A stretch of DNA of 64,000 nt from the NCBI GenBank assembly GCA_000004985.1, contig GG738905.1; one strand, written 5' to 3'. The notes under the pieces were generated by a model. The model was not told the DNA's origin. It worked only from the letters and a program-made list of their open reading frames with translations, and did not search any database. The stretch comes from Naegleria gruberi. Taxonomy: Eukaryota. Positions 1 to 62,288 of this stretch are shown in pieces (positions within the stretch are counted from its first letter, which is position 1; the number at the start of each line of letters is the position of its first letter). Both the position numbers and the translations under genes were made by a program.

Positions 1-489
1 TGAATTTTAGATAAACTTCTATTAGTATCTATTAGATTCTCATCCTTATTTTCATAAGTGATTCCATTATCATTTTGACATTCTGTATTTTCCAATTCTC
101 TTCAACACAACAAAATATTTGAACATCCACCACCAACATTCTACATCCACCACAATCAAAGAATATGCAAACACACCAGAACTATTTGATAATTTAAATG
201 CTTGATACTCTGTATCAGTTGATCCAATTAGATATGTTAATAATACTAACAATTCCAACAATGAATATCCAAATATTTCAATATTTATTCTCTATTATTA
301 CCACAGCTGACATTTTTTTATTAACTTATTAACAAGTGAGTTGTTATCATTTTTGGTTTATGGAAGTAGTCTTCAAAAGGTTATCATTGGAAATTCCAAC
401 ATTGAATTATCAATTTAAATATCTGAAATTATAATTGTCATCAATTCATCTAAATCATCTTCTAATCTTAATCTTCTAATCTTAATCAT

Positions 490-3400
490 CTAATCATCAT
501 TCCAATCAATATCTTGTTTAATTCTAAAATCAACCAACCAATTTTTAACTTTTTCTTTTAATTTTTGTCCATGTTCTTGTTTTTCTCTTTCAATTATATT
601 TAAATCCTTATTTAATTTTAATTTTTTAAAATAAAATCTTTTTAAATAATTTAAATAAAATTCATCTGATTTTTTCTTATTTTCAAATTTTTTAATTAAA
701 CGTTCTTCTTTTGAAAATCTAAATTTTTTAATCCATTCATTAAAATATTTTTTAATTTTTAAATTTCTTTCAAATTCAATTGATTCTTCATAATTATTTA
801 AATGTTCTTTTAAATTTAATTTTAATCCTTTTATGGATTTTGATAAATATTTTCTTTCTTTAATTAAAATTAATTTGTTAATTTTTTCTAATTTTAATTT
901 TTTACGTAATTCAACTTGATCATTAATATTTAATTTTAATCCAATAAATATTTTAATTTTTAATTTCTTTTCATAAATATTAATTGAATTTAATTCTTTT
1001 TCTTTCTTTTCTTTAATTAAATTTAATAATGGATTAAATATTTTCCTTTTTAATAAATTTAAATAAAAATTATCTGCTTTAATTTTTTTCATATTCATTT
1101 CTTGAATTAATTTTTCCTTTTCCAATTGTTTTAATTTTAATAATTCTTTTTCTTTTCTTTTTTCTTCAATTATTTGTTTTTTCCTTTCTTGTTCTTCTTC
1201 TTGTTTTTTCTTTTCTTCTTCCAATTTTAATTTCTAATTTTGTTTTAAATTAAATTAAATAATAAAACAACTTACTTCTTTTTCTTCTTCTTGTAATTTA
1301 TATTTATCTTGTAATTGTTTCCAACGTTCTTTTCTTTCATTAACTCTTTCTTCCATTGCTTTAAGAAATTGTGGTGTTTGTTGATTTGTTGTTGGTTGTT
1401 TTTTTAAATTAATTATATTCGTTGCTGTTGCTGTTGCTGTTGATTTTTCATTATTAGTATTATTACTACTATTTGTATTACTAATATTAGTAGAATTATT
1501 AGATATCTGATTAGAATCATTAATTAAAGAAGTATTTGGTGTAATAATATCACTATGATTACTTATAGTAGAGAGACTACTATTACTATTATTAATTATT
1601 ATATTATTGATAGATGAATGAGTTTCATTATTTAATTCTATTACTTGTTCATTATTGGAAGGAATTAAATCTTTTTCATTACTTGTATTACTTTCATTAA
1701 TATTTGAATTATTATTACTAGTATTTGTAGTATTTGTAGTATTTGAAATATTTCTCTTTTTCTTATTTTCATCATTAATTTTAGAATTAATTATTTGACC
1801 TCCACCACTATTATTTTTAATTTTCCTTCTTGATGTATTAATAATTTCCTGAGGTGTGTTTGTTGTATTATTAAAATAATTACTACTATTACCACCAATA
1901 GTATTATTACTTGTATTATTTGTAGAGCTATTACTATTATTAGTAATATTATTAGAATTATTTGATTCATTTAAAGTTAATTTTTCAATAAAATTATTCA
2001 TCATTTCTTTTCTCCTTAAATGTTGTTTTTCAATAATTTTTCTATCTCTTGATATTTTATATTGACATGTCCATTTAAGGAAATAATGTGATAATATTTT
2101 ACTTCTATGCATTTGATCTGCTGCTTGAATTCTTTTCTTTTCTAATAAAATTGTTTTTTGTATTTTAATTTCTTCTTGTTTTTCTTTTGCTAATTTCCAA
2201 TTTTGTAAAATTGATTTAAATGATTTTTTTTTAATTTTCCATTCATATAATGTCTATTTAAATATTTAAATATTAAATATTAAATTAAATATTTACCTTA
2301 ACTTTTAAAATCATTTGAAATCTTTTTTGACATTTTCTAAACCAAATATTAAATATTTTACTTTTTAAAGTTAAATTATTTGTATTAATTAAATCACTTG
2401 TCATTCTATTTAACATTTCATTTCTTTCCTTTTCATGTTCTTTTAATATTTTTAATTGTTGTTGTTTTAATTTTTCCATTTCCTCTTTCCTTTTTAAAAT
2501 TATTTAATTATTATTAAATATTATTCAAATACTTACATTTGCTGATTTTGTTTAATTGATTTTAATTCTTCCTTTTTAATTTGTTGAACTTGTTTTAATT
2601 TTGATTTTTCTTCTTCAATTTGTTTTTTAATTTTTAAAACTTCTTCTTCAGCTTTTCTCTTTTCATTTTCTGCAATAAATAATTCTTTTTGAGTTGTAAC
2701 ATAATTTGATGTTGATGGTTGTTGATTTGTTCCGATAGATGGTATTTCAACAATACGTTCTTTTTTAATTTTACTATTATTATTAGATGATGGATTTACA
2801 ACAGTATTAGGTGTTGTTGAATTATTAGAATTATTTGTATAATTAGTTCCCAATAATTTAGTTTTAAAAATGTTCATTTGTTGATCTAATGAATTATTAA
2901 TTAAATTTGTATTTAAAATTGAAGAAGGTACAATTGAGTTATCATTAAATTTAGGTTTTTCAATTGAATTCATTGTTGTCACTACTAAATGGTTTATATG
3001 AAAATAATGAATCTTTCTTTTCATCATTTGAAAATATTGATGATGTAAATTTAGATGAAGATGGTCCAATTATTTCATTTACAATATTATCATTATTATT
3101 ACTCATATCATATTTATCAAAATTAAATAAATCACATTGATTCATCATGGTTGAGTTGATGTTGTTGATTATCGGAAGAGTTTAAATCATTTTTTACAAG
3201 TTGAATTTTACTTTCAAAAGTTGGTTCTAAAACATTTAAAACAACAACATTCTTTTTACGTTCCATTGAAAGTCTTAATTTCTCCCATCTTGTTAATTCA
3301 GATGGTCTTTTATCTTTAATTTTATCCATTAATGGTGTATTTAATAATTGATTAGCAGATACTTGATCATCCGATAGTGTTGATTCAATAATTGATTTTG

Positions 3401-3842
3401 TTGTTATTGGATTAGTACTTTTTAATAGTGGATTTTCATTCCTAATTGATGATGTTGTTCTTTTAATTGATGATGATGATAAATTATTACTACTCATATT
3501 AAGACTAGTATTTAATATTAAATTATCTTTAATTTGAAGATTATCTTGTTGTTCTCTTGTTGTCCATTTAGTTATTAGATTTTTAGCCTCCAATCTTAAT
3601 CTTTCCTCACTTGAATTTACTTTTGTATTTACATTATTATTACCAATTCCTTTGATACTTAAATCGGAGGATGATCCTAATGTTGATGATGATGATGAAA
3701 TTAAAAGTGGATGTTGTTGAGGTGTTGTACTTCTATTACCTCTCATATTTGATGATGTTGTTGTATTGTTGGTAGTTGTACTTGATTGGGCGGGAATTGC
3801 TTGCCTCCTTGTACTTCCACCACTGCTCTGAGGTCTTTTCAT
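490..3842 (-). CDS. Multi-exon gene encoding a long K/E-rich coiled-coil protein with Asn/Ser/Thr low-complexity segments and Sfi1-like Trp-containing repeats. Product is unassigned. The 5' part is uncertain.
   Basis: Minus-strand ORFs 490-1224, 1255-2112, 2285-2479 and 2533-3069 join in frame through three short introns. Intron coordinates are about 1234-1275, 2254-2296 and 2490-2536. Each has a GTAAGT or GTAAAT donor and an AAATTAG, TTAAATAG or AAAAAG acceptor. The upstream ORFs 2960-3148 and 3132-3842 are in other frames and could not be joined cleanly. Repeated W-containing K/R-rich units (FNIWFRKCQKRF, HYFLKWTCQYK, LYEWKIKKK, FNEWIKKFRF, KNWLVDFRIKQD) resemble Sfi1 centrin-binding repeats. 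Confidence 0.5.
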
Positions 3843-3999
3843 TAATTTTTATTCAACTTGTTTCGTCTATTTAAATACAATGAAACACATTACTTGTAAT
3901 AATAATACCTTAATATTTTACACCATCATTGAACATCTCCAAATAATGACTCAACTAAGGTTACACTAACATATAAATTTAATTTTGGAATGTAAATAT

Positions 4000-5235
4000 T
4001 TATTGTTGATATTGTAACATATCATCATCTGAATCATGATCATTTTGTTGATTCTTTTGATTTTCTAAATAAGCTTTACCTCCTTGAACAGCCAGAGATG
4101 AGGCTGCTTTTCCACCTTTAACAGCTCCCTTAGCAAGTGTCATGAATCCAGAAGCAACCTTTTTTTGAACCTCCTTATTGGTTGCTGCATTAGCAATTGC
4201 TGTTCCTGCTTTTTGTTGGAATTCCTTATTACCAACAGTTTTAGAAATGGCTGTACCAACTGTTTGTTGAACTTGTTCATTTTGAGCAAATCCTGAAACA
4301 AGTTTGTTGTCAGTATTCTTTGAAATCATATTACCAACTGATTTTTGATATTCTCTATTATTTGAAGCATTAGAAACTGCTGATCCAACTCTTTCTTGAA
4401 CTTTTTCATTGTTTGCAAAATTGGCAACTCCTTGACCCACTTTTTCTTGAACTTGGTCATTATGAACTACTTTACCAACTCCACTATAAACCTTCTTTTC
4501 ATTTTCTGTCAAGTCAGAGGTATCTTCTTTATAGGTTTTCTTTGGTAATGGTGGTGGAGCTCTTCCACTACCACTACTGCTATGACTGTTGTTACCACTA
4601 TTGCTACTGCTACCACCAAGTGACAAGTTTGAAAAACTACTCAAAATACTGCCACTTCTTGATTGTTGTTGTGGTTGCTGTTGTGATACTACTGTATTAC
4701 TATTATTATAATTATAATTGTTAACAACATTATTATTAACTGGAGGTGGAGGAAGTGATGATTGTGGTTTTGGAATGAAAGGAGGTGGAGTTGAAGATTT
4801 TTGAGTTTGTTGTTGTTGAAGAAGTGATTGTGGAAGTGGAGGTGGAACTTTCTTAAAAGAAGGAGGTGGTAATTGACCACTATTAACAACATTATTCACT
4901 GAAGAACGTTCTTCTGGATATTTCTTAAATATTTCTTCTAATATTTGTCTCTTTTCTTCTTGAACAGTTGGTAATTTCTGAGCATTATATTCATACTCTT
5001 TAGCATAATTTGGATCATTAAATTGTGCATGTTCTGATGGTAATCTATGACAAACCAATAATTCATAGGCTTGTAAATAAATATAGCAATTTTCATAATC
5101 ATTAATTCTCTTATATTGACCTGCTTGTTTTAAATAGTTTGCTCCATCTTTAAAGTATTCGGATAATGATCTATTAGAATCAATTAATCCAATCTTTCTA
5201 GAAGCTGTTACATTTAATATATCTATTTTACCCAT
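4000..5235 (-). CDS. Protein with an AMSH/USP8-type N-terminal helical (MIT-like) domain, a Pro/Gln-rich linker and a C-terminal array of ~19-aa tandem repeats. No catalytic domain is present.
   Basis: Single 411-aa ORF. The N-terminus (YFKDGANYLKQAGQYKRINDYENCYIYLQAYELLVCHRLPSEHAQF) follows the USP8/AMSH N-terminal domain pattern. The C-terminus carries about six repeats of NxExVQxxVGxAxxN, visible as ~57-nt DNA repeats around 4140-4500. Confidence 0.55.
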   Translation of the reverse strand: MGKIDILNVTASRKIGLIDSNRSLSEYFKDGANYLKQAGQYKRINDYENCYIYLQAYELLVCHRLPSEHAQFNDPNYAKEYEYNAQKLPTVQEEKRQILEEIFKKYPEERSSVNNVVNSGQLPPPSFKKVPPPLPQSLLQQQQTQKSSTPPPFIPKPQSSLPPPPVNNNVVNNYNYNNSNTVVSQQQPQQQSRSGSILSSFSNLSLGGSSSNSGNNSHSSSGSGRAPPPLPKKTYKEDTSDLTENEKKVYSGVGKVVHNDQVQEKVGQGVANFANNEKVQERVGSAVSNASNNREYQKSVGNMISKNTDNKLVSGFAQNEQVQQTVGTAISKTVGNKEFQQKAGTAIANAATNKEVQKKVASGFMTLAKGAVKGGKAASSLAVQGGKAYLENQKNQQNDHDSDDDMLQYQQ

Positions 5236-55807: not shown

Positions 55808-58501
55808 TTAAATAAACAATACGGATAAAATAGAAATGATTATTACATCTAAACTAAGGATGGCCATGAATGATGAATTAATTACAGAACCTCCACCAAC
55901 TACTTTCTTACTTTGGCTAGTGATTGGACAATTAGATGCCATTATTTGGTAGGATCCATAATAATCCAATCCTATTTCAATACCATTTGTTGTCTTTGAT
56001 ATCTTTGAAATTCCACCATTTCCAACAGTACTTCCAATAGAGTAGACCTTTGAATTAATACTCACACATGATGCACTTGAAATCTGTTGAAGAACTACAG
56101 TTCCCTTTGATTTTGGAGGAACTTCAACAGTAATAGAAAAGAGGTTATTAGAATTGGACCAATACACTGATAACTTTCCGTTTGGAGTTTGTACTGCTCC
56201 TTTAGCCCATGTTAATGAACCAGTTTGAGGTTTTACAACCCATTCAGAGTAACCAGTACTAGTAGGTCTGATTCCTAGAACGTATTTTGAAAGCAATGGA
56301 GAAACGCCACCACTCCAAGCATGAGCAAAACTGTTTGAGGCGCTTTGAGTGGCTCCAATTTCAATACTTTCCCAAAAAGCATTGGTAAAGTAAGGTCCCT
56401 CAACAGTCATTGGTGTCCAAACTGAATTAATAATATCAAATGCATGATCTTCTCTATTTGATTCAAATGCTGCTGCTGCATGGAAGTAAGAAATGTATGG
56501 AGAGGTAAAAGATGCTCCAGCATTCTTGAATGTTAAATAATTAGAGCCAGACTTCAATTGATCTTTCATAGTATCCAGTAATGTGCTGGAAAAGTTCTTT
56601 CCTCTCAAAGATGCAATGCCTGATAATATTGCGAATGCATTGGTATCCTGAGCTATGCCAGACTTTTGATCTGAAATAATGTAAGTACCCGAGTTTGTAT
56701 CAAACAACTTTTCATTAACTAGTTGTTTTGTAGAGTTAGCTCTTATTAAGTACGTTTCAGCCAAATTTGTTTCTCCAACTGCTTTTGCCAAAACTGAAGC
56801 AGATTCCATTGCCATAGCATATTGAATATTTAGTTTTGTAAATCTTCCCAAAAGCATTCCTAAACTTGGATAAAAGTCATAGGTCCAATTTGGATTAACA
56901 CCTTGCAACAAACCATCACTACCTTTAAGAGAATCGAAAGCATTAATGAGTAATTTCAATCTTGTCCATTGTTCCTTAACAAAAGATAAATCGCCAGAAT
57001 ATAGATAGTATTCCTCAATAGCTGATAACGAAGCTAAAAAGTATGTATAACTGTAAAATATTGGTGTTACAAAATCGTCAGATGGATCAATGGTTTGATA
57101 AGGGAAACCAGTACCAATTCTAGAAGAAACAAATCCACTTTTCAATTGATAGGATGTGCATATTCCAAGAGTTCCACTTGCATATTCATTAGCATAATAA
57201 GAATAGTATAATAATGGGCCTGCTACGAGTAAGTCACCACTCCAAACATTACGATCTCTCTTAGCACCATCCAGAATTACAGCTACAGGGTTGGTTCCAA
57301 CTCCAAAATCATGAGCTGATTGTTTTGATGTGAGAGGATCTTGATGAAGAATGCTACCACTGACATCAACTACTTTAAGATTCTTAATAAATGCACTTTG
57401 ATACTTTTTAGCAGAAAATCCAACTCCACCTGGAACAACTGATGGGATGTATGGATTAGTGGACTGAGGAAGATTAATATCAAATATCAAGGCACCATCT
57501 ATATAAACCTTAAATACAAGTTGATTAACAGAAGCAAATACATCATACCATTGATTTTCAACCAAGTTAGGAAGCGAAGTATTGTAATACAAGGTTTCAT
57601 AAGGGTAAAGCTCTTGTGCACTTATTACTTGAATCATATTTGGATTATGAGAACTATTTAGGCTATTTAAGGTGACTCTTGTTTCAGAATAGTCGTTTGA
57701 TCTAATAGCAAAAGAAATACCATTCTTCATAAATAGAGTAGAGAAGGATACATTATAATTAATCCATGACATTCCCTTTAAAAAGACACCTGCAGTACCT
57801 GGTGAAATATAAAGACCTTGATCAGTGCTAATAAACCCAGGTTGAACAGTTCTTGGTGGGACCATGTTCAATTGTAAAGTTCTTACCCCCATATTCCACA
57901 TCTTGTTGTAAACCTCATTAGAACAAGAGAAAGCACCATTAGATTGAGAAGGATCTCTGGTATAGATAGCTGATGTGAATGAAACAGAAGAGATGGTAAT
58001 AGAAGCTCCAACAGTAAGTAATTCAATTCTCTGATAACGTTGAGCTCCTTGGATACCATTTGTATCAAAATGGCCAGCTATTTCAATGGTATGGATATTT
58101 ACTCTGTCCAAATCAAAGGCACGAATCATTGGATTGAACAACATGTCGCCATCCTTAATATTTGGAAGACTTTCAGAATAGGATACTCTAATTTCTATTG
58201 GACTTTGAGAAATGGATGCAATGTCAAACATTGGAAAACCAGCAACATTTTGTCCATAATCCAAAACAATGGAAGCAAGATTACCAGACATGTCATTATT
58301 GAGAGTAAATGGAAACATTCCATCAGCACCTGCAACAGTAACACTACCATTCACAGATAAAACAGATTTTGGTTTTTGGACAAGTGGCAAATCAGCAATA
58401 CTGCTGTCACCATTCACAAACATTTCATTGAGGTTAACCCACAACGCAACCAAAACGCTTAATACCAAGCATAAAACAGCTCTACTAGTTGTAGTTGTCA
58501 T
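55808..58501 (-). CDS. Secreted glycoside hydrolase family 78 (alpha-L-rhamnosidase)-like protein.
   Basis: Intronless 897-aa ORF. Signal peptide MTTTTSRAVLCLVLSVLVALWVNLN. The GH78 catalytic-region signature DGAKRDRNVWSGD is present. There is a C-terminal (alpha/alpha)6-barrel-like region (NAFWESIEIGATQSASNSFAHAWSGGVSPLLSKYVLGIRPTSTGYSEWVVKP...LTWAKGAVQTPNGKLSVYW). Confidence 0.6.
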   Translation of the reverse strand: MTTTTSRAVLCLVLSVLVALWVNLNEMFVNGDSSIADLPLVQKPKSVLSVNGSVTVAGADGMFPFTLNNDMSGNLASIVLDYGQNVAGFPMFDIASISQSPIEIRVSYSESLPNIKDGDMLFNPMIRAFDLDRVNIHTIEIAGHFDTNGIQGAQRYQRIELLTVGASITISSVSFTSAIYTRDPSQSNGAFSCSNEVYNKMWNMGVRTLQLNMVPPRTVQPGFISTDQGLYISPGTAGVFLKGMSWINYNVSFSTLFMKNGISFAIRSNDYSETRVTLNSLNSSHNPNMIQVISAQELYPYETLYYNTSLPNLVENQWYDVFASVNQLVFKVYIDGALIFDINLPQSTNPYIPSVVPGGVGFSAKKYQSAFIKNLKVVDVSGSILHQDPLTSKQSAHDFGVGTNPVAVILDGAKRDRNVWSGDLLVAGPLLYYSYYANEYASGTLGICTSYQLKSGFVSSRIGTGFPYQTIDPSDDFVTPIFYSYTYFLASLSAIEEYYLYSGDLSFVKEQWTRLKLLINAFDSLKGSDGLLQGVNPNWTYDFYPSLGMLLGRFTKLNIQYAMAMESASVLAKAVGETNLAETYLIRANSTKQLVNEKLFDTNSGTYIISDQKSGIAQDTNAFAILSGIASLRGKNFSSTLLDTMKDQLKSGSNYLTFKNAGASFTSPYISYFHAAAAFESNREDHAFDIINSVWTPMTVEGPYFTNAFWESIEIGATQSASNSFAHAWSGGVSPLLSKYVLGIRPTSTGYSEWVVKPQTGSLTWAKGAVQTPNGKLSVYWSNSNNLFSITVEVPPKSKGTVVLQQISSASCVSINSKVYSIGSTVGNGGISKISKTTNGIEIGLDYYGSYQIMASNCPITSQSKKVVGGGSVINSSFMAILSLDVIIISILSVLFI

Positions 58502-58927
58502 GTTTTTTTCTAATTGATTTTCTCAACATTTCAGAAGAACTTATTCACTTAAATACTCGCCACTCTGCTTGAGCAAAACTTGCTTGGTTTTGTGCGTTGG
58601 AATACTAAAACCAAGTTCCATCTTCCCTGCGCTGAGTAGAAGGAAACTCAGCTTGGAGCGATATAGTTGATTGAATCAGAAATGTAACAAAATATTAGAT
58701 GCAAAAGGGATATGTTTTGATGCAAGGAAGTACAACACATGATTGAAATAAAACATGACAGATTCAAAAGAGTTCCACCCGATTGCTTGTAATTTTTGTA
58801 GACATCTACATAAACAATGGTAAGAATTTGATAATTATTATTTAAATTATTTAAATATGATGAAAAATTATTATAGTGGTAAGTTGTTGAAAGGAAACAT
58901 TTTTTAATAATAATTATGAAATAATAG

Positions 58928-60288
58928 GAAAACAATTACCGACATGTTCCAGATGTGCAACAAAAGGTATTACATGTGAATATAAAACACCAAAGAAGAG
59001 AAAGATTGCTTCGATATCATCAGCATCGGAATTGCCTGCAAAAGCAGTTTCAAAAGAAGTTGTGGAAAATAAGGATGTACCAGCTGATACAACAATTGTT
59101 TCTAGGTATTCAAAGCAATTTACAAAGAAACAAATAATTGATTTGTATTATGTGATGATTTGTGATCATTATATTATTGTTGAAAAAGAATTGTTGGAGA
59201 AGTACATCTTGAATGAGGAAATAACAGATCAGCAACCCTTAAAGAAGGAAATGAATGCCTTCTTTCATTCTATTCAAGCATTGTTGGAACAGAGATTTGG
59301 TTTTTGCGAAATTGCAGAAAAATCAGCCAAGAAATCAAGAGATTTACTATCAAAGATTTTTGATCAAGTTTCAAACTATTATGTTGCTTGCTGCTATTCA
59401 TCTCTTGGAATTTATGAAATAGGAACAGGAAGAGGAAAACTTGCAAAATTCTATATCAAAACAGCTAAATTTTACTTTGATGGGATTGAATTGGAAAAAC
59501 TTAATAATTCTGAACGTTTACTGCTCGAACTTATATCAGTAATGGAACTAATGATTGAGGATGATTTAGGCACGAACAAAATTCTAAAAGATTTCCCAAG
59601 TTACTTTTACATGGCAACCAGTACATCAGTTCCTCAACAATTTCTAGAAAAGATTCCACAACAAGTTGACTTATCAAATTTGGAGACGTATTTGGAAGTT
59701 ATTTGTCAAAGTCTCAAAGAATTTTTCATTTCTAAAGCAAAATCAACCAGATCACAATTTGACCTTATTTGGTATAGTGCTGGTTCTAATTATTATTTTG
59801 AAATAGTTCATTATGGACTGAAATTATTGTTTCTTATTCAAAATTGTCCAGAATATAGATCAGAAATTGAGCAAACTGCTTGTAAAATAACATTACTTTC
59901 AGATAGTGAATATTTTCCATTTACTACATTTGCTGCTATTCCTTATTTTACAATGGCTAGTAGAGTCCATGTACAAGTGGCCAAGGAAATTGAAAAGGGA
60001 TTGAGAAGCAATCTGTCTTATGATATTTATTCAATGATTACAAAGGATTACCGATCTCTGCATGTATTGAAATCACGTTATAAAAGAGTGAATGTTGTGG
60101 CTGGAAGTGTGATATTGGAAATGGAGGAAATATTGAAAAAAAGAGATATTGAACCAATCACCCAAGCAGAACACAACAGTGTATATTCTCCCCTTACTAA
60201 TTTCTTAGATATGTTGTTCAATCCAGACGATTCATTCAGCACTTCTATGATTTCCAGTTTAATGGACCCTTCACAAGATAAGATTTAA
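58928..60288 (+). CDS. Putative Zn2Cys6-type (fungal-type binuclear cluster) DNA-binding protein. The model is incomplete at the 5' end.
   Basis: ORF-track ORF 59032-60288 (418 aa) extends in frame upstream to 58891. The extension encodes ...LPTCSRCATKGITCEYKTPKKRK, which has the C-x2-C-x6-C + basic-tail second half of a Zn2Cys6 cluster. A possible upstream exon at 58755-58819 (MTDSKEFHPIACNFCRHLHKQ + tg|GTAAGA) would supply the first half. It cannot be joined to 58928 with canonical sites while keeping the third Cys. Confidence 0.4.
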
Positions 60289-61226: not shown

Positions 61227-62288
61227 ATGAGTAGTACTCTTGATTTACAAACAACTAATACCACATCAACAATGCCACACAGTTACTCGGAATCTGAGAT
61301 TCAAAACTTGGGTGATGATGTTTCTATTGATAGTGAAGAATTCAATAATACCGTAGTTGCTATGGACCAATTAACACTTGGTTCCACACCACTAGACGGT
61401 CTTACTGATAAGCAATTGGAAATATTGAAGAAGTTTACCCAAATGTTTGAAGATGACCGTTCCAAACTGACCCAACTTCAACAATATTATTGTTTCCATG
61501 ATAGATTCTGTTTTGTCAGATATTTGAAAGCCAGAGATTGGGACATTCCAAATGCTACTAAATTATTGAAGAGTTCTCTTACTTGGATTGAATCCTCATA
61601 CAAGCCATTTAGTTTAACTGCTAAACAATTATGGTTAGAAGCATCACCTGCCAAGACTTATATCAAGGGTCATGATAAGGCTGGTCGTCCAATTATTTAT
61701 CTTCATGCCGGTAGAGATTTCACAAATGATCCTGCTACTGGTGTTAGTTTACTTGTTTATAATTTGATTGCTGCCAGTTATAGAATGGGTCCAAATGGTT
61801 CTCAAATGACTTGGATTTGTGATTTCAGTTCCTACACAACAAAGTCTGCTCCTCCATTGGCAGTTTGTAAACAAGCTGTTGAAATTTTATCTTCACACTT
61901 CCCTGAAAGACTTGGTTTGTGTTTGATGGTCTTTGCTCCTAAGGTTTTCTATTGGTTCTTCAAATTAATTTCTCCTCTCATTCCACCTGTCACTAAGCAA
62001 AAGATTCAATTCTGTAAGGGCACCAAACAAAAGGATATGAGAGCATTCTTTGAACCATTTGTGGATATGTCTCAACTTGAAAAGAAATATGGAGGTGATC
62101 AAGATTTCACATACAATCATAAGGAAATGTGGGCTCACGAAATTGAACATGATTTGAAGAGATTGCACAAAATTAAGGAAGCTGGTGGTATGAAACCAGA
62201 AGAAGCTGATGCTTTAATTAATGAACCAATTATTGACACTTTGGAAAAGCACAACAAGTTTTTCAAAGCCAGACATGCTTCCAAATAA
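61227..62288 (+). CDS. SEC14/CRAL-TRIO lipid-transfer protein.
   Basis: 353-aa single ORF. It has a CRAL-TRIO N-terminal helical region (YYCFHDRFCFVRYLKARDWDIPNATKLL) and the lipid-binding domain (DKAGRPIIYLHAGR..., QMTWICDFS..., HFPERLGLCLMVFAPKVFYWFFKLISPLI). Confidence 0.75.
   Translation: MSSTLDLQTTNTTSTMPHSYSESEIQNLGDDVSIDSEEFNNTVVAMDQLTLGSTPLDGLTDKQLEILKKFTQMFEDDRSKLTQLQQYYCFHDRFCFVRYLKARDWDIPNATKLLKSSLTWIESSYKPFSLTAKQLWLEASPAKTYIKGHDKAGRPIIYLHAGRDFTNDPATGVSLLVYNLIAASYRMGPNGSQMTWICDFSSYTTKSAPPLAVCKQAVEILSSHFPERLGLCLMVFAPKVFYWFFKLISPLIPPVTKQKIQFCKGTKQKDMRAFFEPFVDMSQLEKKYGGDQDFTYNHKEMWAHEIEHDLKRLHKIKEAGGMKPEEADALINEPIIDTLEKHNKFFKARHASK

What the first reader, a model, noticed from the sequence alone, without database searches (positions are those of the whole stretch)
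58755..59031. Split Zn2Cys6-like cluster that cannot be joined with canonical splice sites
The extension of ORF 59032-60288 encodes CSRCATKGITCEY followed by KTPKKRK. That is the C-x2-C-x6-C + basic second half of a fungal-type binuclear cluster. A short ATG-initiated ORF 130 nt upstream encodes ACNFCRHLHKQ and ends in tg|GTAAGA. The third Cys would therefore be completed by the first base of the next exon. No AG acceptor places a T or C in the required phase before an in-frame TGA at 58888-58890. The usable acceptor at 58926-58927 gives Trp and the wrong frame. The cause may be a sequencing indel, a non-canonical intron, or a false pairing. If real, a GAL4-type factor sits next to metazoan-type cilium genes, which bears on the lineage.
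Basis: partly seen in the sequence, partly recalled or inferred. Interest (0 to 1): 0.5.

Follow-up and report, generated by a model that had tools for sequence, protein, structure and literature searches.

The report
Two-base exon completes Naegleria zinc-cluster gene
The two halves of this Naegleria gruberi zinc-cluster transcription-factor gene can be joined with ordinary splice sites if a predicted exon only two bases long (TG) sits between two short introns; the public gene model misses this and so loses half of the DNA-binding domain, but no transcript data were available to confirm the splice.

Summary
The claim that they cannot be joined canonically is wrong.

- **Gene model:** exon 1 (58755-58819), intron GTAAGA..TATAG (58820-58876, 57 nt), a 2-nt exon TG (58877-58878), intron GTAAGT..AATAG (58879-58927, 49 nt), then exon 3 (58928-60288).
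- **Product:** 475 aa with a perfect CX2CX6CX6CX2CX6C cluster. Pfam Zn_clus scores 33.1 bits over the full profile. A family HMM scores 67 bits, against 34 bits for the annotated model.
- **Uniqueness:** it is the only canonical one- or two-intron path that keeps both halves.
- **No sequencing error:** an independent metagenome contig (99.2% identical overall) is identical across both introns and the 2-nt exon.
- **Organism:** Naegleria gruberi. The RefSeq model XP_002671401.1 starts inside intron 1 and has half a cluster.
- **Family:** a large heterolobosean family of Zn2Cys6 proteins with a Cep3-like helical domain.
- **Intron 2** sits at a position shared by four other family loci.
- **Relatives** carry 31-, 12- and 7-nt exons within the cluster-coding stretch (the 12- and 7-nt ones in the linker); two N. 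fowleri models include the 12-nt one.

No transcript evidence could be obtained. The splice is inferred, at about 75% confidence.

The parts
58755..58819 (+). Exon 1: ATG plus 21 codons plus TG. Encodes MTDSKEFHPIACNFCRHLHKQ and the first two bases of the Cys3 codon.
   Evidence: The EFHPIAC..CR..HK motif matches the family consensus. GC is 34% against 11% in the following intron. The only difference from the second strain here is synonymous, GCT to GCA.
58820..58876 (+). Intron 1 (57 nt), GTAAGA...TTATTATAG, phase 2 inside the Cys3 codon. Not in the public gene model.
   Evidence: Its size and 11% GC match six ORF-bridging introns in the window (35-49 nt, 12-29% GC). Identical in independent contig L001.
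58877..58878 (+). Predicted 2-nt exon TG. T completes Cys3 (TG|T) and G starts the next codon (G|GA = Gly).
   Evidence: In a shuffle test, a rescue with a GTRAG donor arose in 0.4% of shuffles of the 108-nt interval. No transcript evidence.
58879..58927 (+). Intron 2 (49 nt), GTAAGT...AATAATAG, phase 1 directly after the Cys3 codon.
   Evidence: Used by the annotated model XP_002671401.1 (P0006). Four other family loci have an intron at the same position and phase: L004, L007, L009 and L010.
58928..60288 (+). Exon 3: second half of the cluster (KQLPTCSRCATKGITCEY), a basic stretch KTPKKRK, a disordered linker, an all-helical Cep3/MHD-like domain, and the TAA stop.
58788..58977 (+). Span coding the six-cysteine cluster (Cys12 TGT at 58788 to Cys39 TGT at 58975-58977), interrupted by both introns.
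59095..60144 (+). Approximate coding span of the helical C-terminal domain (residues about 56-405 of the exon-3 protein).
   Evidence: No Pfam hit in any of 49 family members.
58861..58863 (+). ATG used as start by the public model (MKNYYSG...). It lies inside predicted intron 1.
   Evidence: P0006 = NAEGRDRAFT_73457 / XP_002671401.1 / D2VWP6, 459 aa.

Best explanation
This is Naegleria gruberi gene NAEGRDRAFT_73457, a member of a large heterolobosean family of transcription factors. Family members combine an N-terminal Zn2Cys6 binuclear cluster with a C-terminal helical domain resembling the middle-homology domain of the yeast zinc-cluster protein Cep3.

The true coding sequence most likely has three exons: 58755-58819, a 2-nt exon TG at 58877-58878, and 58928-60288. 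They are separated by two ordinary short GT..AG introns of 57 and 49 nt.

- **Intron 2** is an old family intron (phase 1, directly after the third Cys codon).
- **Intron 1** lies only 2 nt upstream, inside that Cys codon, at a position seen in none of the other eight loci examined; whether it was gained here or lost elsewhere cannot be told.

A 3' splice site and a 5' splice site 2 nt apart can hardly be occupied at once. The two introns must therefore be removed one after the other. Either order works, because removing one leaves the other with a normal-sized flanking exon.

The product is a 475-aa protein with a complete CX2CX6CX6CX2CX6C cluster. It presumably binds DNA as fungal zinc-cluster proteins do. 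The public model misses exon 1 and the 2-nt exon and so predicts a protein with half a cluster.

Shown here: the sequence, splice-site anatomy, domain scores, family conservation, and absence of sequencing error. Inferred: that the 2-nt exon is actually spliced in, the order of splicing, and DNA binding.
For: 1. **The join works.** The joined CDS is 1428 nt, open, and 475 aa. Pfam Zn_clus scores 33.1 bits, E 6e-8, profile 2-39/39. Exon 3 alone scores 19 bits, below the cut-off of 21.
2. **It is the only good path.** Enumeration of canonical paths found 0 open one-intron and 4 open two-intron paths. The 2-nt-exon path scores 67.4 bits on an HMM built from 58 other family members. The other three score 32.7-36.0 bits and the annotated model 34.0 bits.
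3. **Conserved residues line up.** All six Cys and His19 of the joined model sit on columns that are invariant in the 22-sequence alignment, which includes this model. The third-to-fourth Cys spacing (CGKQLPTC, x6) equals the family's CDKxLPxC.
4. **Intron 2 is well supported.** It is used by the JGI/RefSeq model. Its position and phase recur in L004, L007 (a near-identical copy, in a N. gruberi-like strain, of NAEGRDRAFT_63195, whose JGI model has the full cluster), L009 and L010.
5. **Small exons are a family trait in the cluster-coding stretch.** N. fowleri has a 12-nt exon CAATGCGATAAG (L002 3774-3785), included in models XP_044567429.1 and CAG4711921.1 but skipped in XP_044567455.1. Metagenome locus L003 has a 7-nt exon ATTACCT (606-612). 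L010 has a 31-nt exon.
6. **The introns look like local introns.** Their size (57 and 49 nt) and GC (11% and 18%) match six ORF-bridging introns in the window, and the exons are 32-36% GC.
7. **Chance is unlikely.** A rescue with a strong donor appears in only 0.4% of shuffles of the interval.
8. **No sequencing error.** The independent contig L001 is identical over 58820-58927, and the exon-1 difference is synonymous.
9. **Precedent exists.** Spliced 1-nt exons are experimentally confirmed in plants and Fusarium (PMC4674806, PMC8831610, PMC12940212).
Against: - No transcript or cDNA evidence could be obtained. No protein in the 5.8-billion-sequence collection carries the spliced N-terminus.
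- The only close relative available is a 99%-identical strain, so conservation of the 2-nt exon across species is untested. The next homologue is 43% identical and has its introns at other positions.
- The donor of intron 1 is GTAAGA rather than GTAAGT. By my own reading of the sequence, it has no clear yTrAy branch motif near its 3' end.
- Skipping the 2-nt exon through the 108-nt outer intron uses the same outer sites and could compete with inclusion.
Confidence: 0.75

Rival explanations
1. The public model is right. Transcription or translation starts at ATG 58861, only intron 2 is spliced, and the protein has half a cluster. Exon 1 would be a recently orphaned relic or an upstream ORF.
For: The RefSeq/JGI model XP_002671401.1 reads MKNYYSGKQLPTC.... 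No transcript contradicts it. Other family members also have models without the cluster (P0009 and others).
Against: - The first 18 nt of that model are AT-rich, intron-like sequence (11% GC over 58820-58876).
- The model fails the Pfam cut-off and scores 33 bits less than the joined model on the family HMM.
- Exon 1 is intact: it has an ATG, every conserved family residue, an exact GT donor after TG, and a synonymous-only polymorphism.
- Cluster-less models elsewhere in the family can be traced to missed small exons. The same error type is documented for fungal Zn2C6 genes (PMC10141177).
Confidence: 0.13
2. The DNA-binding end of the gene is decaying. Exon 1 is spliced straight to exon 3 through one 108-nt intron (58820-58927), or intron 1 is not removed. 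Either gives a frameshift or stop and a non-productive mRNA.
For: The outer donor and acceptor are the same good sites. The direct join gives ..HKQWKTITDMFQMCNKRYYM*. A 2-nt exon is intrinsically hard to define.
Against: The 1361-nt exon 3 is fully open, and within the CDS the two strains differ by two synonymous changes, one Thr/Ala replacement and one in-frame 12-nt indel. The AG|TG|GTAAGT arrangement that exactly restores the Cys codon, frame and family spacing is improbable by chance (0.4%).
Confidence: 0.07
3. A sequencing or assembly indel, or a non-canonical intron, separates the halves. These were the first reader's alternatives.
For: None beyond the failure of single-intron models.
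Against: The independent metagenome assembly L001 is identical over the whole interval. A fully canonical solution exists, so no non-canonical site is required.
Confidence: 0.03

Closest known systems
Experimentally confirmed ultra-short exons: the 1-nt exons of plant APC11 and VPS55 (PMC4674806, PMC8831610) and of Fusarium CYP621A (PMC12940212)
   Same: An exon shorter than a codon is flanked by canonical AG and a GTRAGT-type donor. It is needed to keep the frame and to encode a conserved residue. Genome annotation missed it, which truncated the N-terminus.
   Different: This exon is 2 nt rather than 1 nt, and the organism is a heterolobosean protist. It rests on sequence and family comparison only, whereas those cases have RNA-seq or RT-PCR proof. 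Conservation across species is not shown here.
Mis-annotated fungal Zn2C6 genes (CeGAL study, PMC10141177) and the Trichoderma Xlr2 microexon inside the GAL4-like domain (PMC11121469)
   Same: The zinc-cluster coding region is broken by short introns and small exons. Gene models then lose the DNA-binding domain and appear to contain only the middle-homology domain. In Xlr2, an 18-nt microexon encodes two of the six cysteines.
   Different: Those are fungal genes with the Pfam Fungal_trans domain, and the Xlr2 exon is alternatively spliced in frame. Here the exon is 2 nt, skipping it shifts the frame, and the organism is not a fungus.
Fungal zinc-cluster proteins with a middle-homology domain, such as Cep3 (PDB 6F07, 6P7V), Gal4, Ppr1 and Put3
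   Different: No Pfam Fungal_trans match in any of 49 members. No coiled-coil dimerisation element is evident. About 8% identity to Cep3. The family was found named only in Heterolobosea (Naegleria, Willaertia, Acrasis).
Recursive splicing and spliceosomal twin introns (stwintrons) — compared from my own knowledge of these systems, no paper read
   Same: Two splicing reactions must happen in sequence on sites that are almost adjacent.
   Different: In this gene both introns have complete splice sites in the genome. No site is created or split by the other intron, and a real (2-nt) exon remains in the mRNA.

Membership tests
Zn2Cys6 binuclear cluster domain (Pfam PF00172, GAL4-type) | Six cysteines spaced CX2CX6CX5-12CX2CX6-8C | tested here: met
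   The joined model reads CNFCRHLHKQCGKQLPTCSRCATKGITC. This is met only if the 2-nt exon is included.
Zn2Cys6 binuclear cluster domain (Pfam PF00172, GAL4-type) | Score above the Pfam gathering threshold over the full profile | tested here: met
   33.1 bits against a cut-off of 21, profile 2-39/39, E 6e-8. Exon 3 alone scores 19 bits and fails.
Zn2Cys6 binuclear cluster domain (Pfam PF00172, GAL4-type) | Sequence relationship to solved zinc-cluster DNA-binding domains | tested here: met
   The family profile that includes this protein hits LAC9 (7e-8), PUT3, PPR1, GAL4, HAP1, Cep3, RSC3 and LEU3.
Zn2Cys6 binuclear cluster domain (Pfam PF00172, GAL4-type) | Binds two Zn(II) ions and CGG-type DNA sites | not testable with these tools
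   Needs biochemistry.
Fungal-type zinc-cluster regulators with a middle-homology domain (Pfam PF04082 Fungal_trans) | Pfam Fungal_trans / Fungal_trans_2 match C-terminal to the cluster | tested here: not met
   No such hit in this protein or in any of 49 family members.
Fungal-type zinc-cluster regulators with a middle-homology domain (Pfam PF04082 Fungal_trans) | C-terminal domain has the Cep3-type helical fold | tested here: met
   [not shown]
Heterolobosean FHPIAC zinc-cluster family (this work; 125 representatives) | N-terminal FHPIAC..CR..HK.CDK.LP.C..C..RG..C.Y..PK signature plus the conserved C-terminal domain | tested here: met
   phmmer found 125 representatives at E<=1e-3 and 74 at E<=1e-10. 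Named members come from N. gruberi, N. fowleri, Willaertia magna and Acrasis kona. The joined model scores 67.4 bits on the N-terminal family HMM.
Ultra-short (sub-codon) exons | Canonical AG upstream and GT donor downstream; inclusion required for the frame and a conserved residue | tested here: met
   The sequence reads TATAG|TG|GTAAGT. It is the only open path that retains both cluster halves.
Ultra-short (sub-codon) exons | Junction reads or cDNA showing that the exon is in the mRNA | not testable with these tools
   No spliced product is in the protein collection. Both metagenome scans found nothing. The only other source, run ERR1078381, is genomic.
Ultra-short (sub-codon) exons | Conservation of the exon and its splice sites in orthologues | tested here: inconclusive
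   It is identical in a 99%-identical strain, and no intermediate-distance orthologue was found. Intron 2's position is shared by four paralogues. Intron 1's position was not seen in the other eight loci examined.
Stwintron / recursive splice site | One intron interrupts, or its removal regenerates, a splice site of the other | tested here: not met
   Both donors and both acceptors are intact in genomic DNA.

The most novel reading that the evidence does not exclude
The 2-nt exon is really spliced, which would put it among the shortest exons known and make it, to my knowledge, the first reported from a discoban protist. Inclusion versus skipping would then act as an on/off switch for the DNA-binding form. 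Skipping the exon frameshifts the mRNA, and an internal start would give a protein without the binding domain. The roughly 30-nt linker between the two halves of the cluster would also be a hotspot of intron gain and movement in Heterolobosea: relatives carry 12-, 7- and 2-nt exons in it at different positions (and a 31-nt exon across the first half of the cluster in another).
Probability: 0.2. Interest if true: 0.7.

Novelty: new member of a known kind. Interest (0 to 1): 0.45.

Why it matters
- **Annotation:** it corrects a public gene model (XP_002671401.1 / D2VWP6), which predicts a transcription factor without a working DNA-binding domain. The same error recurs in the family. XP_002671853.1 (N. 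gruberi) is truncated, and XP_044567455.1 (N. fowleri) skips a 12-nt exon that holds a zinc-binding cysteine. Counts of DNA-binding zinc-cluster factors in Naegleria are therefore likely too low.
- **Splicing:** if RNA data confirm it, a 2-nt exon between two roughly 50-nt introns is a clean natural test case. It would show how an intron-defining spliceosome handles splice sites that cannot be occupied together.
- **Evolution:** the family pairs a GAL4-type cluster with a Cep3-like domain outside fungi. That bears on whether this 'fungal' architecture is ancient or was transferred.

Tried and rejected
- **Single-intron joins:** none is open.
- **Sequencing error:** rejected by the independent contig.
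- **Origin of intron 1 by duplication of intron 2:** the two introns are no more alike than shuffled controls (p = 0.57).
- **Stwintron reading:** rejected, because all four splice sites are intact in the genome.
- **Search for a spliced product or closer orthologues:**
  - The word-indexed protein search found only this gene's own cluster.
  - The profile version of that search saturated on low-complexity candidates and returned 2 hits.
  - An exact-pattern metagenome scan found nothing.
  - A profile-guided metagenome scan found nothing.
- **Look-ups of N. gruberi genomic loci:** the assembly is not in the gene-position index. N. gruberi paralogues could be seen only through a near-identical strain in metagenome ERZ929261.
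- **The Logan contig** for this gene comes from the same genomic run, not from RNA.
- **AlphaFold-database fold search:** unavailable.
- **Literature searches** for Naegleria together with Zn2Cys6 or Zn_clus returned no paper.

Full report
**What is in the sequence**

On the + strand an ATG at 58755 opens MTDSKEFHPIACNFCRHLHKQ. That reading ends ...CAA TG followed by GTAAGA at 58820. The long ORF 59032-60288 extends upstream in frame to give (G)KQLPTCSRCATKGITCEYKTPKKRK. An in-frame TGA at 58888-58890 closes that frame further upstream. Joining 58819 directly to the acceptor at 58926-58927 gives Trp and a frameshift.

The split-codon pattern (TGY-N6-TGY-N18-TG|GTRAG) occurs once in both strands of the window, at this site. 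The upstream piece is therefore not a chance look-alike.

AG at 58875-58876 is followed by T-G at 58877-58878 and then by a consensus donor GTAAGT at 58879. Read as a gene model, this gives:

| Feature | Coordinates | Notes |
|---|---|---|
| Exon 1 | 58755-58819 | ends with TG of the Cys3 codon |
| Intron 1 | 58820-58876 | 57 nt, GTAAGA..TATAG |
| 2-nt exon | 58877-58878 | TG |
| Intron 2 | 58879-58927 | 49 nt, GTAAGT..AATAG |
| Exon 3 | 58928-60288 | includes the TAA stop |

TG+T makes the third cysteine codon and G+GA makes glycine. The CDS is 1428 nt and open. The N-terminus reads ACNFCRHLHKQCGKQLPTCSRCATKGITCEYKTPKKRK, a perfect CX2CX6CX6CX2CX6C cluster.

Pfam Zn_clus matches the joined protein at 33.1 bits (cut-off 21) over profile positions 2-39 of 39. 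Exon 3 alone reaches 19 bits and fails.

I enumerated every canonical GT..AG path with one or two introns of at least 20 nt between the ATG and the stop. No one-intron path is open, and four two-intron paths are. On an HMM built from the cluster regions of 58 other family members, the 2-nt-exon path scores 67.4 bits. The other three score 32.7-36.0 bits and the annotated model 34.0 bits. In shuffles of the 108-nt interval, a rescue with a GTRAG donor arises in 0.4% of trials, and one with any GT in 13%.

**Organism and current annotation**

Three neighbouring ORFs are exact matches to Naegleria gruberi proteins on a 290,827-bp scaffold, including kinesin-14 XP_002671391.1 and XP_002671477.1. 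The gene is NAEGRDRAFT_73457 (XP_002671401.1, UniProt D2VWP6; 459 aa).

The public model starts MKNYYSGKQLPTC. It begins at ATG 58861 inside my intron 1 and uses the same intron 2. It therefore carries only three of the six cysteines.

**Not a sequencing artefact**

An independent metagenome contig (ENA ERZ929261, locus L001) is 99.2% identical over 2.6 kb. It is identical at every base of 58820-58927. In the stretch aligned in detail (58640-59080) its differences are:
- a base change in the 5' flank upstream of the ATG;
- a synonymous GCT to GCA in exon 1;
- a synonymous TCG to TCA in exon 3;
- an in-frame 12-nt indel in exon 3.

Further downstream the predicted proteins differ by one Thr/Ala replacement.

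**The family**

A full HMMER scan with the exon-3 protein found 125 cluster representatives at E<=1e-3 and 74 at E<=1e-10. Named members come from N. gruberi, N. fowleri, Willaertia magna and Acrasis kona, which are all Heterolobosea.

Fifty-eight of the fetched sequences have the full six-cysteine pattern, preceded by a characteristic FHPIAC motif: FHPIAC..CR..HK.CDK.LP.C..C..RG..C.Y..PK. Exon 1 of the window gene carries this signature (EFHPIACNFCRHLHKQ). In a 22-sequence alignment, which includes the joined model, Cys12, Cys15, His19, Cys22, Cys29, Cys32 and Cys39 of that model fall on the seven invariant columns. Cys22 is the residue completed by the 2-nt exon.

**Introns in relatives**

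| Locus | Source | Intron structure in the cluster-coding stretch |
|---|---|---|
| L004 | ENA metagenome | TGT G\|GTAAGT..AG\|AC — same position as window intron 2 |
| L007 | N. gruberi-like strain; near-identical copy of NAEGRDRAFT_63195, whose JGI model has a full cluster | TGT A\|GTATGT..AG\|CA — same position |
| L009 | ENA metagenome | TGC G\|GTATGT..AG\|AC — same position |
| L010 | ENA metagenome | TGT G\|GTACGT..AG\|AC — same position, plus a phase-0 intron after Cys1, leaving a 31-nt exon |
| L002 | N. fowleri | ..CAT AAG\|GTAAGT (3706-3773) \|CAATGCGATAAG\| (12-nt exon QCDK, 3774-3785) GTTAGT (3786-3972) \|AAA CTC CCA |
| L003 | JGI metagenome | 7-nt exon ATTACCT (606-612) between introns of 36 and 59 nt |
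| L006 | N. gruberi-like strain | Phase-2 intron two codons before Cys3 |
| L005 | GCA_041937235.1 | None |

- Intron 2 (phase 1, directly after the Cys3 codon) is shared with L004, L007, L009 and L010. I read it as an old family intron.
- Two N. fowleri models (XP_044567429.1 and CAG4711921.1) include the 12-nt exon and read HKQCDKKLPSC. A third (XP_044567455.1) skips it and loses the third cysteine.
- Small exons within the cluster-coding stretch are therefore a recurring trait of this family, and annotators often miss them.
- Intron 1 of the window gene, 2 nt upstream of the shared intron, was seen at that position only here.

**Do the two introns look like local introns?**

Six short introns that bridge long ORFs elsewhere in the window are 35-49 nt. 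They begin GTAAGT, GTATGT or GTTAGT, end TAG, and have 12-29% GC. Introns 1 and 2 are 57 and 49 nt, begin GTAAGA and GTAAGT, end TAG, and have 11% and 18% GC. The flanking exons have 32-36% GC. The two introns are not detectably similar to each other.

**The protein**

The exon-3 protein, modelled with a 49-sequence alignment, gives a confident model with mean pLDDT 85. It has a short zinc-cluster piece, a disordered linker, and an all-helical domain of about 350 residues.

No Pfam family other than Zn_clus matches the domain in any of 49 members. The family profile hits the solved DNA-binding domains of LAC9, PUT3, PPR1, GAL4, HAP1, Cep3, RSC3 and LEU3. The architecture thus mirrors fungal zinc-cluster regulators, although membership of Pfam Fungal_trans is not met.

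**Mechanism**

A 3' splice site and a 5' splice site separated by 2 nt cannot plausibly be bound at the same time, so the two introns must be removed in sequence. This step is inference. Removing either one first leaves the other with normal flanks: ...CAATG-TG|GTAAGT, or ...TATAG|TG-GAAAAC. No splice site has to be created, so this is not a twin intron.

Confirmed 1-nt exons in plant APC11 and VPS55 and in Fusarium CYP621A show that the spliceosome can do this (PMC4674806, PMC8831610, PMC12940212). Use of the outer sites alone would skip the exon and frameshift the mRNA. How often that happens is unknown.

**Comparison with what is known**

- Missing zinc-cluster domains caused by unpredicted introns are documented for fungal genes (PMC10141177).
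- A Trichoderma microexon encodes two cluster cysteines and is alternatively spliced (PMC11121469).
- The present case is a new, more extreme member of these known kinds, in a non-fungal lineage.
- No paper linking Naegleria with Zn2Cys6 was found in the searchable library. UniProt already names the N. fowleri and Acrasis proteins as Zn(2)-C6 domain proteins.

**Limits**

- No RNA evidence was reachable. No spliced product exists in the protein collection, and both metagenome scans were empty.
- The N. gruberi assembly is not in the gene-position index.
- I put the 2-nt-exon model at about 0.75. The annotated cluster-less start is at about 0.13, a non-productive or decaying 5' end at about 0.07, and an indel or non-canonical splicing at about 0.03.

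Noticed in passing
window 55808-58501 (-): The divergently transcribed neighbour, 253 bp from the ATG of the zinc-cluster gene, is an 897-aa protein with bacterial-type alpha-L-rhamnosidase domains (Bac_rhamnosid6H and Bac_rhamnosid_C). It corresponds to N. gruberi XP_002671477.1. A zinc-cluster regulator head-to-head with a glycosidase recalls fungal regulator and target gene pairs. No link was tested.
   Followed up: partly
L002 3706-3972 (N. fowleri VFQX01000007.1): N. fowleri model XP_044567455.1 (FDP41_010721) skips a 12-nt exon (CAATGCGATAAG, QCDK) and so lacks the third cluster cysteine. Models XP_044567429.1 and CAG4711921.1 of the same or a duplicate gene include it. Because 12 nt is in frame, this could be an annotation error or a real isoform lacking DNA binding.
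   Followed up: partly
P0009 = N. gruberi NAEGRDRAFT_73153 (XP_002671853.1): Another N. gruberi family member is annotated starting at MRYPN..., just after where the cluster should be. Its N. fowleri and metagenome counterparts (L002, L003) have the cluster split by 12-nt and 7-nt exons. It is probably truncated in the same way. The N. gruberi locus could not be fetched.
   Followed up: partly
L002, L003, L004, L006, L007, L009, L010 and window 58800-58945: Within about 30 nt coding the H-K-x-C-x-K-x-L-P-x-C linker, family members have introns at seven or more different positions and phases. Even close subfamily members (N. fowleri versus L003) differ. This is an unusually high turnover of intron positions in one short stretch.
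   Followed up: partly
[not shown]
   Followed up: yes
window about 59039-59050: There is a 12-nt in-frame indel (AVSK present in NEG-M, absent in the metagenome strain) within a CAAAAG repeat in the disordered linker after the cluster.
   Followed up: no
window 1-4000: GC content is 20-23% in the first 4 kb, against 28-35% in the rest of the window, with strongly negative AT skew. The cause was not examined.
   Followed up: no
L002 5814-7802: In N. fowleri a second Zn_clus gene (639 aa) lies immediately downstream of the homologue on the same strand, as a tandem pair. The N. gruberi window gene has no such neighbour; a CRAL/TRIO gene follows at 61227-62288.
   Followed up: no
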